The position numbers and the translations under genes are program-made. Positions 51,733-54,823 of a DNA stretch of 64,000 nt are shown here, one piece after another. The stretch is from the NCBI RefSeq assembly GCF_016717175.1, contig NZ_JADKFZ010000004.1. One strand, 5' to 3'. The notes below the pieces were generated by a model, which made no database searches, was not told where the DNA came from, and saw only the letters and a list, made by a program, of their open reading frames with translations. How positions within the stretch are numbered: position 1 is the first letter of the stretch; every line of letters begins with the position of its first letter. The DNA is from Nannocystis sp. GTDB lineage: Bacteria > Myxococcota_A > Polyangia > Nannocystales > Nannocystaceae.

Positions 51733-54375
51733 CTACTCCACCTCGACGAGGCCGGGGAGCAGGGCGAGGGCCTCGTCTTGCGGGAGGAACAGGAGCGCGA
51801 GCGGCAGGCGGGCGAGGGCGGCGGAGAGGGCGAGGGGGAGCTGTTGTTTGGCGTCGCGGCGCGACTGGAGGCGGGTGCGCAGGCCATCGTCGCCGGGCTG
51901 GGGGATGACTTGCTCGAGCAGGATGTCGACGAGGCGGCGCTGGCGGGGGAAGACGCGGAGGTCGAGCTCGATGCGGGCGGGGACGCCGGCCTTGCTGCGG
52001 ACGGCGGCGACGGCCTCGCGCAGGCCGCCGAATTCGTCGACCAGCTTGAGGTCCTTGGCGTCGGTGCCGGAGTAGACGTGGCCGCGGCCGAGCTCGTCGA
52101 CGCGCTCGATCGTCAGCTTGCGGCCCTCGGCGACGCGGCGGCGAAACAGGTCGTACACGCGGCGGATGGAGGCGTCCATGCGGGCGCGCTGGTCCTCGCT
52201 GAAGGGCTTGTAGAGGCTGGCGATGTCGGCGTTCTTGCCGCGGCTGAAGGTGCTGGTGGAGATGCCGAGCTTGGCGAGCAGGCCGGAGAGGTCGAAGTGC
52301 AGGCTGACGACGCCGATCGATCCGGTGATCGTGGTGGGCTGGGCGAAGATCTGGCGCGCGCCCATGGCGACGTAGTAGCCGCCGCTGGCGGCGACGTCGC
52401 CCATGGACACTACGATCGGAGGGCTCTTGCGCGGGGTCTTCTCGTGAGCCTCCTGTGTGCGCGAGACCTCGCGCCAGATCAGATCGGAGGCGAGGGCGGA
52501 GCCGCCGGGGCTGTTGACGCGCAGGACGATGCCCTTGCACATGGGGTCGGCGCGGAGGTTGCGGAGCTGCTGGACGAGGGTGTCGGCGCCGGCGAACTGG
52601 ATGTTGAGGAAGGGGATCGTTCGACTCTCGCCGTCGATGATGGTGCCCTCGACGAGCACGACGGCGGTGTAGGGGGCGTTGGCCCAGGTCGGGAGCTCGG
52701 GGTCGGTCTCGCCGAAGCTGGCGAACTTGACGCGGGCGCCGACGGCGGTGGAGATCGATTCGATGACCTCGTCGCGGTGGACGACCTTGTCGACCAGCTT
52801 GTGCGCGAGCGCCTGCTCGGGGCCGTGCGGGGCCTCGTCGATGAGGCCGCGGACCTGGTTCTGGGCGAGGCCGCGGGCCTGGGCGATGTCCTTGAGGATC
52901 TGGGCGTAGGTGTCGTCGAGGATCGCCTCGCGCTGCTGACGGTCGGGCTCGGAGGGGCCGCTGCGAGTGAAGCGCTCGTGGGCGCTCTTGTACTCGTTGA
53001 TGTAGAGGCCCTCGACGTTGACGCCGAGCTTCTCGAGGGCGCCCTTGAAGTAGAGGGTGGTGGCGGAGAGGCCGAAGGTGGCGAGCTCGCCGGCGGGGTG
53101 GATGTAGACCTGCTCGGCGACGCTGGCGAGGTAGTAGTCCTTGAGGTCGCCGCCCTCGAGGTAGGCGAAGACGTGGCCGCCGGCGTTGCGGACGCGGATG
53201 AGCGCGGCGCGGAGCTCCTGCAGGCTGGCCCAGCCGAGCTTGGCGGCGCGGGCGTCGACCAGGAGGATCGATCGCGGGCCGGCTTGCTCGGCGCGCGCGA
53301 GGCGTTCGAGCAGGCGGATGAGGGCGCGCTCGCCTTTCACTGCGGAGAGGTCGATGCGTTCGGCGTCGACCAGGCGCGGCCAGAAGACGCGGCCCTGGCG
53401 GGCGCTGCTGAAGCGGGCGGCGAGGCCGAAGCCGTCGACGCCGCCGGACAGGCCGGCGTGCATGCCGGCGCGGACGGTCATGAGGTCCCACGAGACGGCG
53501 AGGGCGACCGAGCCGCGCACGGCCTTGGCGTCGGCGACGACGGCGTAGGTGTTGCGGTCGAGGATGTGGGCCCGGACCTGCTCGACCTCGCCGGCGAGCT
53601 CGATGCCCTGGTAGCGGAAGGCGACGCGGCCGCGCGGGAGGACGCCGAGGTACTCGCCGAACTGCGGGGTGACGATGTCCGGGTTGCCGCGCCAGCGCGT
53701 GCGCACGCCGCCGGCGAGCTCGAGCATGCGGGTGCCGAGCGGGCGCAGGGCGAGCTCGCCGGTGACGGCGAACTCCTGCGGGAGGCTGCCCTCGGGTTGG
53801 AGGTCGGCGGGGCCGAGGCGGGCGACGGCGCCGACGGAGGCGTAGTTGCGGATGCGGACGAGGAGGCCGAGGTCGAGGTCGGGGCGGCGCAGGCTCTGGC
53901 CGCGGTCGAGCATCCAGTGCAGGCCGAGGCCGAGGGCGGCGACCTTGCCGTCGCCGGCGCTGAGGCCCCACGAGACCTTGGTGAAGTCGGGGTTCTGGGC
54001 GGCGCGGCTGTCGGTGTAGTTGCCGCCGAAGCTGGGGAGCACGCGCTGGACGCCGAGGCCGGTGGCGAAGCCGAGGCCGAGGTTGAGGCCGAGGAAGCCG
54101 CCGACGCCCGAGCCGCGTGTGAACGCGGAGGTCGATCGGTAGCCCATGATCACGGCGTCGAGGCCCTTCACGGCCGAGAGCAGGGCGGGGTTTAGCTCGA
54201 GGCTGCTGGCGTCGCCTTCGCCCGAGTAGTCGTGGATCGGGCGGTCGATGCCGTCGCTGGCGCCGCGGTCGACGGCGACCGGCTGCTGCGCGGCGGCGGG
54301 GGTGGTCAGCGTGGCGACGAGGGCGACGACGACGAGCGGGCCCCGTGGACCTGGCTTTGGGGACAGGGTGCTCAT
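51733..54375 (-). CDS. sppA: signal peptide peptidase SppA (S49, two-domain) with N-terminal extension (paralog 2)
   Basis: Has RVNSPGGSALASDLI and GDVAASGGYYVAMGA. Signal peptide LVVVALVATLTTPAAAQQ from ATG 54375. Stop is 3 nt before the ATPase ATG. Confidence 0.8.
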   Translation of the reverse strand: MSTLSPKPGPRGPLVVVALVATLTTPAAAQQPVAVDRGASDGIDRPIHDYSGEGDASSLELNPALLSAVKGLDAVIMGYRSTSAFTRGSGVGGFLGLNLGLGFATGLGVQRVLPSFGGNYTDSRAAQNPDFTKVSWGLSAGDGKVAALGLGLHWMLDRGQSLRRPDLDLGLLVRIRNYASVGAVARLGPADLQPEGSLPQEFAVTGELALRPLGTRMLELAGGVRTRWRGNPDIVTPQFGEYLGVLPRGRVAFRYQGIELAGEVEQVRAHILDRNTYAVVADAKAVRGSVALAVSWDLMTVRAGMHAGLSGGVDGFGLAARFSSARQGRVFWPRLVDAERIDLSAVKGERALIRLLERLARAEQAGPRSILLVDARAAKLGWASLQELRAALIRVRNAGGHVFAYLEGGDLKDYYLASVAEQVYIHPAGELATFGLSATTLYFKGALEKLGVNVEGLYINEYKSAHERFTRSGPSEPDRQQREAILDDTYAQILKDIAQARGLAQNQVRGLIDEAPHGPEQALAHKLVDKVVHRDEVIESISTAVGARVKFASFGETDPELPTWANAPYTAVVLVEGTIIDGESRTIPFLNIQFAGADTLVQQLRNLRADPMCKGIVLRVNSPGGSALASDLIWREVSRTQEAHEKTPRKSPPIVVSMGDVAASGGYYVAMGARQIFAQPTTITGSIGVVSLHFDLSGLLAKLGISTSTFSRGKNADIASLYKPFSEDQRARMDASIRRVYDLFRRRVAEGRKLTIERVDELGRGHVYSGTDAKDLKLVDEFGGLREAVAAVRSKAGVPARIELDLRVFPRQRRLVDILLEQVIPQPGDDGLRTRLQSRRDAKQQLPLALSAALARLPLALLFLPQDEALALLPGLVEVE

Positions 54376-54823
54376 TGCAGGTTGTCTTCGGGGATGATGT
54401 CGACGATCGCCAGGACGTGGCGCACGGAGAGGAGGCGGAGGGTCTCGTCCCACGGGACGGCGATGCCCTGGTCCTTGGCGAACAGGACCTGGGCGCCGAC
54501 CGGGATGCCGCTGACGTTGGCGCCGAGGCCGGTGTCGTCGTCGTCGTCGTCGTCGTCGTCGTCGGCGATGTAGGCGGCCTTGGGCTGGGTGCGGGCGACC
54601 TCGACGACCTCGGCGAGCAGGGCCTCGCTGTGGCTCTCCTTGGCGCCGGCGGGGAGATAGAGGCCGGACTCGCTGCGGTCGGGGGTCTTGACGAGGCGGA
54701 CTAACACGCGCGGGCCGAGCGGCTGGATGTGACGCGAGACCTTGCGCGGGCGCTCGGGTCCGGCGGAGTCAGTGACGACGATCTCGGGCCCATCCTCGGG
54801 GCGCTTGCGCGGCTTGTTCGACA
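54372..54823 (-). CDS. GroES-fold (Cpn10-like) protein with a basic N-terminal extension and a D10 poly-Asp insert
   Basis: IQPLGPRVLVRLVKTPDRSESGLYLPAGAKE…AEVVEVA…VGAQVLFAKDQGIAVP…VLAIVD aligns to GroES over its whole length. Ten Asp residues are inserted in the roof-hairpin region. ATGA overlap with sppA paralog 2. Confidence 0.6.
54541..54570. repeat. (GTC)10 trinucleotide repeat encoding poly-Asp
   Basis: gtcgtcgtc… x10, within the GroES-like gene. Confidence 0.9.

What the first reader, a model, noticed from the sequence alone, without database searches (positions are those of the whole stretch)
51733..54823. Operon-like string: GroES-fold protein with poly-Asp insert, then SppA paralog, then ATPase/TOPRIM, then M16 peptidase. 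A second SppA paralog is followed by a TerB-like gene
Two large SppA (S49) paralogs (41779-44457 and 51733-54375) share an unusual ~350-aa N-terminal extension. One is followed by a tandem-TerB-domain protein, and TerB is often defence or stress associated. The other is preceded by a Cpn10-fold gene (ATGA overlap) and followed by the ATPase/TOPRIM pair and a 1004-aa M16 peptidase, all linked by overlapping stop and start codons. A chaperonin-fold protein, two proteases and a nuclease/ATPase module in one translationally coupled unit is not a combination I recognise.
Basis: partly seen in the sequence, partly recalled or inferred. Interest (0 to 1): 0.55.

Follow-up and report, generated by a model that had tools for sequence, protein, structure and literature searches.

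The report
Envelope protease operon with embedded defence cassette
The gene string is real but has two origins: an old, myxobacteria-specific operon (a GroES-like protein, an outer-membrane-anchored SppA peptidase and an M16 peptidase) that later received an unrelated, fast-evolving ATPase/nuclease immunity-type gene pair.

Summary
All genes exist at the stated places, on the minus strand of a Nannocystis sp. genome. Three of four junctions are stop/start overlaps and one is a 3-nt gap.

It is not one functional unit.

1. **Core operon.** Cpn10-like (150 aa, acidic roof insert) then SppA2 is conserved in every related locus examined. The M16 lipoprotein follows in Nannocystis and in a distant relative whose SppA is only 36% identical.

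3. **Inserted cassette.** The ATPase plus 254-aa gene is a split OLD-like ABC-ATPase/TOPRIM pair. The evidence:
   - GC3 is 0.78-0.80 against 0.94-0.96 in the flanking genes.
   - The same pair occurs in unrelated contexts, for example in Polyangium.
   - The centre of the ATPase is hypervariable.
   - Only decayed ATPase remnants remain at this site in cultured Nannocystis species.

4. **TerB.** The "tandem TerB" call is weak, but SppA1-TerB-like is itself a conserved pair.

The role of the GroES-like partner is unresolved.

The parts
54833..54838 (-). Conserved -10-like hexamer (TACAGT) 8 nt upstream of the Cpn10-like ATG. Probable promoter of a leaderless or near-leaderless operon transcript.
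   Evidence: TACAGT / TAAAGT / TACATT / TATGGT sits at the same distance from the ATG in L001, L011, L007, L012, L004, L014 and L019. Function is inferred, not shown.
54372..54824 (-). Cpn10/GroES-like protein (150 aa). It has a basic/acidic N-terminal tail, a GroES-type mobile-loop motif (SGLYLP) and a poly-Asp insert at the roof-hairpin position.
   Evidence: Cpn10 family, but far below GroES equivalog cutoffs. (alignment with E. coli GroES and 22 orthologues; the acidic insert is always present). (415 homologues; those listed are 59-100% identical, and every one named by a source is from Nannocystis, Nannocystaceae, Nannocystales or 'Myxococcales').
54534..54563 (-). Perfect (GAC)10 repeat encoding the D10 tract.
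   Evidence: In orthologues the tract varies in length and composition, roughly 6 to 20 Asp/Glu residues, sometimes interrupted.
51733..54375 (-). SppA2 (880 aa): cleavable signal peptide, FadL/PorV-like outer-membrane barrel, 67K-type tandem S49 peptidase, conserved hydrophobic C-terminal tail.
53341..54288 (-). N-terminal extension of SppA2 (about residues 30-345): a 14-strand beta-barrel with an invariant N62-P63-A64.
51901..53271 (-). SppA 67K-type catalytic region (residues 369-825). Lys463 and Ser664 align to the E. coli SppA dyad K209/S409.
50440..51729 (-). ABC-type (AAA_15/21, Rad50/SMC-like) ATPase of the inserted cassette, with Walker A GQNGSGKTT, signature LSYGQKR and Walker B VIADE.
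50830..51585 (-). Hypervariable central region of the ATPase (residues 49-300).
   Evidence: 23% identity to L001 in this region against 92% and 80% in the flanking ATPase head segments. The neighbouring SppA2 and M16 are about 85% identical.
49679..50443 (-). 254-aa OLD-type TOPRIM nuclease-like partner. Invariant residues E13, D14, H90, D92, D94, E150.
46668..49682 (-). M16 (pitrilysin-like) zinc peptidase lipoprotein, 1004 aa, with an HYLEH motif and an LLAC lipobox.
   Evidence: Conserved downstream of SppA2 in Nannocystis, L019 and the distant L031.
41779..44457 (+). SppA1 (892 aa), a paralog with the same barrel-plus-S49 architecture.
44509..45243 (+). TerB-like 244-aa protein. It is the conserved downstream partner of SppA1.
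   Evidence: TerB 23.1 bits, below the cutoff. (the SppA1-TerBL pair is kept down to 43% SppA1 identity in L033).
54841..54971 (.). Window-specific tandem triplication (unit about 42-44 nt) of the 3' end of the upstream 802-aa gene plus the start of the intergenic region.
   Evidence: Relatives carry a single copy.

Best explanation
The string has two evolutionary layers.

**Layer 1: an old operon for peptide degradation in the cell envelope, specific to Nannocystineae-type Myxococcota.** A promoter directly upstream drives a cytoplasmic GroES paralog (Cpn10L). Its stop codon overlaps the start of SppA2.
- SppA2 is exported through Sec; it has a cleavable AAA|QQ signal peptide.
- Its N-terminal FadL/PorV-type 14-strand barrel inserts into the outer membrane, so the tandem S49 domains (Ser664/Lys463 dyad) hang in the periplasm.
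- There, together with the downstream pitrilysin-like M16 lipoprotein, it degrades hydrophobic peptides.
- Cpn10L keeps the GroES subunit-interface strands and a GroEL-binding-type mobile loop. It is therefore most likely a specialised co-chaperonin made in fixed ratio with the large SppA2 precursor. This step is inferred; I put it at about 0.35.

**Layer 2: an inserted defence-type cassette.** In the Nannocystis ancestor, a two-gene split OLD-family cassette landed in the SppA2-M16 spacer. It consists of an ABC ATPase with a hypervariable central sensor-like region and a TOPRIM nuclease. It resembles PARIS AriA/AriB, MADS Mad3/Mad4 and HEC-01. This lineage keeps it intact, and it is probably transcribed by read-through. 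In cultured Nannocystis species it has decayed. By analogy, it would act as an abortive or nucleolytic immune module, functionally independent of the proteases.

**Shown:** the gene anatomy, the folds, the conservation pattern, the composition break and the ATPase remnants.
**Inferred:** localisation, substrates, GroEL binding, defence activity and co-transcription.
For: Identity of the source: (a protein 100% identical to the 254-aa gene product is annotated in a Nannocystis sp. MAG).

Core pair:
- Cpn10L lies immediately upstream of SppA2 in every locus whose upstream flank is covered.
- An in-frame (A/G)TGA overlap is present in 22 of 24 loci.
- The acidic insert and the SGL(Y/F)LP loop are always present.
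- Cpn10L is 62% identical in L031, where SppA is only 36% identical.

Triad: M16 follows SppA2 in all Nannocystis loci, in L019 and in L031.

Barrel.

Catalytic dyad.

Cassette:
- GC drops from about 0.74 to about 0.61 across 49700-51730.
- GC3 is 0.78-0.80 against 0.94-0.96 here, and similarly lower in relatives.
- The same overlapping pair sits in unrelated contexts in Polyangium and two metagenome contigs.
- TOPRIM fold and invariant E...DxD.
- The ATPase hits AriA, mad3, PtuA, GajA and AbiLi models.
- Members of the 254-aa family weakly hit HEC-01B and DUF4276. DUF4276 is a Toprim and a Mad4 homologue (PMC12065111). AAA15/21 ATPases pair with TOPRIM domains across OLD, Gabija, PARIS, AbiL and MADS3-4 (PMC11464382).
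- Mosaic ATPase: 92% / 23% / 80% identity across head, centre and tail.
- ATPase remnants in the SppA2-M16 spacers of N. exedens, N. punicea, N. pusilla, ILAH1 and RBIL2, E down to 6e-20.

No terminator-like or sigma-70-like site was found on the minus strand within the string (weak evidence at 72% GC).
Against: - No expression, localisation or activity data exist.
- Cpn10L scores 36 bits against GroES equivalog cutoffs of 86-215 bits and is not next to groEL, so GroEL binding is unproven.
- A cytoplasmic partner for an exported protease is topologically awkward.
- Pfam's FadL family does not detect the barrel. Its membrane insertion rests on a predicted structure.
- The cassette is not called by any PADLOC model for the nuclease partner in this genome. 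It has no relatives in the phage, plasmid or viral collections and no neighbouring defence or mobile-element genes.
- Its tight packing (3-nt gap, GTGA overlap with M16) could reflect functional integration rather than hitch-hiking.
- The low GC has persisted despite an apparently old insertion, and I have not explained that.
Confidence: 0.7

Rival explanations
1. The whole string is one integrated system. The ATPase/TOPRIM pair works with the proteases and the GroES-like protein, for example as a nucleic-acid-sensing module that controls envelope proteolysis, or as a protease-armed defence system.
For: Very tight gene packing: overlaps and a 3-nt gap. The order is conserved in five related metagenome or MAG loci. 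In one assembly the SppA and ATPase are called as a single 1218-aa product.
Against: The pair stands alone elsewhere and is missing from the deep triad locus L031. It has decayed in cultured Nannocystis while Cpn10L, SppA2 and M16 stay intact. Its codon composition differs. The 1218-aa 'fusion' comes from a frameshifted MAG region. The proteases are exported while the ATPase and TOPRIM have no export signal.
Confidence: 0.06
2. The ATPase/TOPRIM pair is a housekeeping DNA repair or maintenance module (RecF/Rad50/OLD-like), not immunity.
For: The ATPase head resembles RecF, Rad50 and SMC. There are no mobile-element or defence neighbours, and no phage or plasmid copies.
Against: The distribution is patchy, with pseudogenisation in sister species. 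The central domain is hypervariable between close relatives. The composition is atypical in every host examined. The closest models are defence ATPases.
Confidence: 0.12
3. Cpn10L is not a GroEL co-chaperonin. It is a GroES-fold adaptor with its own role, for example a regulator or escort of the SppA2 precursor, or a metal-binding acidic protein. Its coupling to SppA2 reflects a direct interaction before export.
For: It scores far below GroES equivalog cutoffs. It has a 30-aa charged N-terminal tail and a large acidic insert that canonical GroES lacks. It is always next to sppA, never groEL, in the loci seen.
Against: The best-conserved segments are exactly the GroES interface strands and the mobile-loop motif. 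Its conservation is much higher than that of SppA2 (62% against 36%), which points to a conserved partner outside the operon such as GroEL.
Confidence: 0.3
4. The neighbourhood is merely inherited synteny. Cpn10L, SppA2 and M16 are adjacent by descent without a shared function.
For: The whole region (802-aa gene, Cpn10L, SppA2, M16, TerBL, SppA1, MutS2) is syntenic within Nannocystis. M16 is absent from the locus in Paraliomyxa-type genomes.
Against: The Cpn10L-SppA2 overlap survives complete turnover of the upstream neighbour, from the 802-aa gene to a MiaB-like radical SAM gene. It also survives divergence down to 36% SppA identity, and the triad reappears in L031.
Confidence: 0.1

Closest known systems
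E. coli SppA / protease IV (67K-type signal peptide peptidase A; PDB 3bez)
   Different: The N-terminal inner-membrane helix is replaced by a cleavable signal peptide plus a ~300-aa FadL/PorV-like outer-membrane barrel. There is an extra conserved hydrophobic C-terminal tail. The gene is translationally coupled to a GroES-like gene.
FadL / TodX / PorV / BamG family of 14-strand outer-membrane barrels
   Different: No Pfam match. It is never standalone: almost every full-length family member is 856-917 aa, that is, fused to SppA. The transported ligand is unknown.
GroES / Cpn10 co-chaperonin
   Same: Pfam Cpn10 above threshold. The N- and C-terminal interface strands and a mobile loop with a hydrophobic tripeptide align with E. 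coli GroES. Public annotation calls it GroES.
   Different: 36 bits against equivalog cutoffs of 86-215 bits. It has a 30-aa charged N-terminal tail and a ~15-aa longer roof region with a poly-Asp/Glu tract. The genomic partner is sppA, not groEL.
OLD-family and OLD-like ABC-ATPase/TOPRIM defence systems (P2 Old, Gabija GajA, PARIS AriA-AriB, AbiL, MADS Mad3-Mad4, PADLOC HEC-01)
   Same: An AAA_15/21-type ATPase with an insertion between the head halves, plus a TOPRIM nuclease with E and DxD. The two-gene split layout matches PARIS, AbiL and Mad3-4 (PMC11464382).
   Different: The nuclease partner matches none of TOPRIM_Old, DUF4435 or RloB. It matches DUF4276/HEC-01B only marginally, and only in a few family members. 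The family is small (73 clusters) and, where named, confined to Myxococcota. Here it is embedded inside a housekeeping operon rather than a defence island or mobile element.
Pitrilysin (PtrA, protease III) and other ~1000-aa M16 peptidases
   Same: M16 and M16_C domains with an HxxEH motif. Located in the envelope.
   Different: It is a lipoprotein (LLAC lipobox). The equivalog scores are far below cutoff. It is syntenic with SppA.
B. subtilis sppA-yteJ operon (own knowledge, not checked here)
   Same: An SppA encoded together with a small partner gene thought to modulate it.
   Different: YteJ is a membrane protein, whereas here the partners are a cytoplasmic GroES-like protein (SppA2) and a TerB-like protein (SppA1).

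Membership tests
SppA 67K type (TIGR00705 / MEROPS S49) | Whole-protein score above the curated equivalog cutoff | tested here: met
   SppA2 scores 321.2 against 311.45 bits. SppA1 scores 281.2, below the cutoff, but it passes SppA_dom (203.7 against 155.45).
SppA 67K type (TIGR00705 / MEROPS S49) | Ser/Lys catalytic dyad (E. coli S409/K209) | tested here: met
   S664 and K463 align to chain residues 384 and 184, which are S409 and K209. Both are invariant in 39 sequences, including SppA1.
SppA 67K type (TIGR00705 / MEROPS S49) | N-terminal inner-membrane anchor helix | tested here: not met
   It is replaced by a cleavable signal peptide and a 14-strand barrel.
FadL/PorV outer-membrane barrel family | 14-strand barrel fold similar to solved family members | tested here: met
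   [not shown]
FadL/PorV outer-membrane barrel family | Sequence-profile membership (Pfam Toluene_X / FadL) | tested here: not met
   No Pfam family matched residues 1-392 at E <= 10.
FadL/PorV outer-membrane barrel family | Outer-membrane localisation and hydrophobic ligand passage | not testable with these tools
   Needs cell fractionation and transport assays.
GroES / Cpn10 | Pfam PF00166 above the gathering score | tested here: met
   36.5 against 21.1 bits, but only the N-terminal half aligns.
GroES / Cpn10 | NCBIfam GroES equivalog or subfamily cutoff | tested here: not met
   The best score is 36.4 bits; the cutoffs range from 86 to 215 bits.
GroES / Cpn10 | Mobile loop with a hydrophobic tripeptide, plus the interface strands | tested here: met
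   SGLYLP aligns with GGIVL of GroES. IQPLGPRVLVR and VLAIVD align with IRPLHDRVIVK and ILAIVE.
GroES / Cpn10 | Heptamer that caps GroEL; groESL operon context | tested here: not met
   The context is sppA, not groEL, in all loci. Oligomeric state and GroEL binding cannot be tested here.
OLD-family nucleases (classes 1-4) | ABC ATPase and TOPRIM in one polypeptide | tested here: not met
   They are two genes with a 4- to 7-nt overlap.
OLD-family nucleases (classes 1-4) | TOPRIM fold with a catalytic Glu and a DxD motif | tested here: met
   [not shown]
PARIS (AriA-AriB) | AriB = DUF4435 TOPRIM; AriA-type ATPase | tested here: not met
   [not shown]
MADS Mad3-Mad4 / PADLOC HEC-01 (AAA_21 + DUF4276) | Partner belongs to DUF4276 / HEC-01B; the ATPase passes the MAD3 model | tested here: inconclusive
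   3 of 40 family members hit HEC-01B (best E 4.6e-4) and 5 of 40 hit DUF4276 (best E 0.054). The window protein hits neither. The ATPase hits mad3 at 1.6e-13, but NCBIfam MADS3 gives 31.7 bits against a cutoff of 420. No methyltransferase or other MADS genes lie nearby.
Peptidase M16 | M16 and M16_C domains with an HxxEH zinc motif | tested here: met
   PF00675 65.8 bits and PF05193 108.4 bits. HYLEH is present in the sequence.
TerB | Pfam PF05099 above the gathering score; tandem domains | tested here: not met
   23.1 against 24.4 bits, N-terminal half only. The two halves show no similarity to each other.

The most novel reading that the evidence does not exclude
The barrel-SppA fusion may be an uptake-coupled peptidase not described before. 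In this reading a FadL-type lateral-gate channel delivers hydrophobic peptides or lipopeptides directly into a covalently attached, self-compartmentalised SppA chamber under the outer membrane. The substrates would come from prey, from the outer membrane, or from lipoprotein signal peptides. A pitrilysin-like lipoprotein would finish the degradation. A dedicated acidic-roofed GroES paralog would be needed in the cytoplasm to keep the 880-aa barrel-plus-protease precursor competent for export. The parallel SppA1/TerB-like pair would be a second version of the same principle.
Probability: 0.2. Interest if true: 0.65.

Novelty: new variant of a known kind. Interest (0 to 1): 0.45.

Why it matters
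SppA is normally an inner-membrane enzyme that clears signal peptides. A family-wide fusion to a FadL/PorV-type outer-membrane barrel moves the enzyme to a different membrane, so it probably acts on different substrates, in predatory, protein-degrading myxobacteria. Its constant coupling to a divergent GroES paralog gives a concrete, testable case of a specialised co-chaperonin.

Separately, the locus shows a small, undescribed OLD-like ATPase/TOPRIM family with a hypervariable sensor-type region. It sits inside a housekeeping operon and decays in sister species. Defence-gene catalogues built on defence-island context would miss such cassettes.

Tried and rejected
- **Pfam on the SppA N-terminal 392 aa.** Nothing at E <= 10.
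- **Tandem TerB.** The halves do not align.
- **Mobile carriers of the cassette.** No relatives among plasmids, phages or IMG/VR viral contigs.
- **Promoter and terminator scan.** One promoter-like site beyond the M16 stop codon and one plus-strand terminator-like site. This is uninformative at 72% GC.
- **The upstream repeats as a sigma-54 or CIRCE element.** By eye, the GG...GC spacing does not fit sigma-54 and there is no CIRCE inverted repeat (one search found no inverted repeats). The repeats are a window-specific tandem triplication.
- **Recent gain versus old insertion.** I first read the cassette as a recent gain in the window's subclade. One search overturned that: ATPase remnants in cultured species show an older insertion followed by decay.
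- **The 1218-aa SppA-ATPase 'fusion' (P0036).** Rejected as an assembly or frameshift artefact.
- **AFDB Foldseek search.** This would have tested how widely the fusion is distributed, but the library was not available.
- **Literature.** No paper in the searched library links SppA with GroES in myxobacteria or with FadL/PorV.

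
Full report
**Source and anatomy.**
The window is 71% G+C. A protein 100% identical to the 254-aa gene product is annotated in a Nannocystis sp. MAG. All homologues that carry names come from Nannocystis, Nannocystaceae or 'Myxococcales'.

On the minus strand the string reads as follows:
- Cpn10-like gene, 54824..54372, 150 aa
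- SppA2, 54375..51733, 880 aa
- ABC ATPase, 51729..50440, 429 aa
- 254-aa gene, 50443..49679
- M16 peptidase, 49682..46668, 1004 aa

The junctions, in order, are an ATGA overlap, a 3-nt gap, a GTGA overlap and a GTGA overlap. So 'all overlapping' is nearly right, but not exactly.

On the plus strand lie MutS2, SppA1 (41779..44457) and a TerB-like gene (44509..45243). In-frame GC3 of 0.94-0.96, abundant homologues and confident structure models show that these are real genes and not high-GC ORF noise.

**The conserved core.**
I fetched 33 related loci and mapped the window proteins onto them.

- *Cpn10L-SppA2.* Cpn10L sits directly upstream of the SppA2 orthologue in every locus that covers that flank. 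An in-frame (A/G)TGA overlap is present in 22 of 24 loci; one further locus has a 1-nt overlap and one is frameshifted. The pair persists when the upstream neighbour changes from an 802-aa protein to a MiaB-like radical-SAM gene.
- *M16.* It follows SppA2 in all Nannocystis genomes and in L019. It is missing from Paraliomyxa-type loci.
- *The deep triad.* In L031 (59% G+C), SppA2 is only 36% identical, yet the order is MiaB-like, Cpn10L (62% identical, with a DDDDDDFDD insert), barrel-SppA, M16 lipoprotein (44.5% identical), then a convergent second SppA.
- *SppA1-TerB-like.* This is also a conserved pair, kept down to 43% SppA1 identity.

A -10-like hexamer (TACAGT and variants) lies 8-10 nt before the Cpn10L ATG in Nannocystis loci. 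This suggests a leaderless operon start, but that is an inference.

**What the SppA extension is.**
- *Catalytic part.* SppA2 passes the SppA_67K equivalog cutoff over residues 369-825. Lys463 and Ser664 align with the E. coli dyad and are invariant in both paralogs.
- *N-terminal part.* The AF2 model has mean pLDDT 80.8, with most 10-residue blocks of the extension at about 80-95. It shows 14 long antiparallel strands between residues 71 and 323.
- *Motif.* An invariant N62-P63-A64 sits just before the barrel. To my knowledge this is the signature hatch motif of the FadL family.
- *Distribution.* Pfam sees nothing in this region. An exhaustive HMMER scan of 1.84 billion representatives finds only 38 relatives. 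All but two of those longer than 500 aa are 856-917 aa, so the barrel occurs essentially only fused to SppA. The named relatives are Myxococcota.

Together with the cleavable signal peptide, the simplest reading is an outer-membrane-anchored, periplasm-facing SppA. I found no paper describing this.

**The GroES-like partner.**
It is a Cpn10-family member (weak PDB hits to Cpn10, Cpn20 and GroES), but it scores about 36 bits against GroES equivalog cutoffs of 86-215 bits.

Aligned with E. coli GroES, it keeps three features:
- the N-terminal interface strand;
- the C-terminal interface strand;
- a mobile-loop-like SGL(Y/F)LP motif.

It differs in two ways. It adds a charged ~30-aa N-terminal tail. 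It also replaces the roof hairpin with a longer segment that always contains an acidic tract of roughly 6 to 20 Asp/Glu residues. Here that tract is encoded by a perfect (GAC)10 repeat.

It has no export signal. It is far more conserved than SppA2 (62% against 36% in L031), which argues for a conserved external partner such as GroEL. My best guess is a specialised co-chaperonin made in fixed ratio with the large SppA2 precursor (about 0.35). A GroEL-independent escort or regulator is nearly as likely (about 0.30).

**The ATPase/TOPRIM pair is an insert.**
- *Composition.* G+C falls from about 0.74 to about 0.61 across 49700-51730. GC3 is 0.78-0.80 against 0.94-0.96, and the cassette is likewise lower than its flanks in relatives.
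- *Autonomy.* The same two genes, with the same 4- to 7-nt overlap, occur in unrelated contexts in Polyangium mundeleinium and two metagenome contigs.
- *The ATPase.* It matches AriA, mad3, PtuA, GajA and AbiLi models. AAA15/21 ATPases paired with TOPRIM nucleases define the OLD, Gabija, PARIS, AbiL and MADS3-4 systems (PMC11464382).
- *Hypervariability.* Between the window and L001, the ATPase head is 92% and 80% identical but the central 250 residues are only 23% identical. SppA2 and M16 are about 85% identical over the same comparison.
- *Decay.* The SppA2-M16 spacers of N. exedens, N. punicea, N. pusilla, ILAH1 and RBIL2 still hold ATPase remnants (E down to 6e-20). The spacers shrink from 1.1 kb to 0.17 kb and their G+C is host-like.

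So the cassette entered this spacer in the Nannocystis ancestor, has been kept in the window's lineage and was lost by decay elsewhere. This is the turnover pattern expected of an immunity gene, but defence activity is inferred and not shown. No copies were found on plasmids, phages or viral contigs.

**Verdict.**
The reading as one translationally coupled functional unit is not supported. What remains of interest is:
- an undescribed outer-membrane-barrel/SppA architecture with a dedicated GroES paralog and an M16 partner;
- a small new OLD-like split ATPase/TOPRIM family embedded in that operon.

Both are variants of known kinds, and neither has experimental support yet.

Noticed in passing
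window 1-64000 (also L001, L004, L014, L017): The replication-strand GC skew is very strong: (G-C)/(G+C) = 0.18 over the whole window and 0.13-0.26 within individual genes on either coding strand. The matching region of cultured Nannocystis genomes shows about 0.12-0.13, and L001 shows 0.23 (opposite sign because those loci are reverse-oriented). This is unusually high for a bacterium with 71% G+C.
   Followed up: partly
window 54841-54971: Tandem triplication of a ~42-44-nt unit made of the 3' end of the upstream 802-aa gene plus the start of the intergenic region. Relatives have one copy. Any effect on the operon promoter is unknown.
   Followed up: partly
window 54833-54838 (minus strand): A conserved TAnAnT-type hexamer 8-10 nt upstream of the Cpn10-like ATG in Nannocystis relatives. 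This suggests a leaderless transcript.
   Followed up: partly
L004 12824-13940, L014 12527-13440, L017 12527-13255, L027 12460-13540: Decayed ATPase pseudogene fragments lie in the SppA2-M16 spacer of cultured Nannocystis species, with host-like G+C. In L004 a 247-aa ORF called on the opposite strand in this spacer is probably spurious.
   Followed up: yes
window 45308-46603 (minus strand): A ~430-aa protein downstream of M16 with a hydrophobic N-terminus and a long Asp/Thr/Gly (DTGT) low-complexity linker. It has no Pfam match and native GC3 (0.95). It is present only in the loci that also keep the intact cassette, and absent in cultured Nannocystis.
   Followed up: partly
[not shown]
   Followed up: no
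L003 10001-13657: The 1218-aa 'SppA-ATPase fusion' protein in GCA_964268365.1 coincides with frameshifted sequence in that MAG. It is an assembly or annotation artefact, not a true fusion.
   Followed up: yes
L004, L013-L015, L027 (start of SppA2 orthologues): In several cultured Nannocystis species, 40-85 extra low-complexity residues lie between the overlapping GTG start and the signal peptide. Either the true start is internal, which would lose the overlap, or these precursors carry a long N-region.
   Followed up: no
window 39055-41739 (+), 33194-37960 (-): MutS2/Smr lies directly upstream of SppA1, an arrangement conserved in many relatives. Mrp/NADH-antiporter-type membrane subunits lie further upstream.
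   Followed up: no
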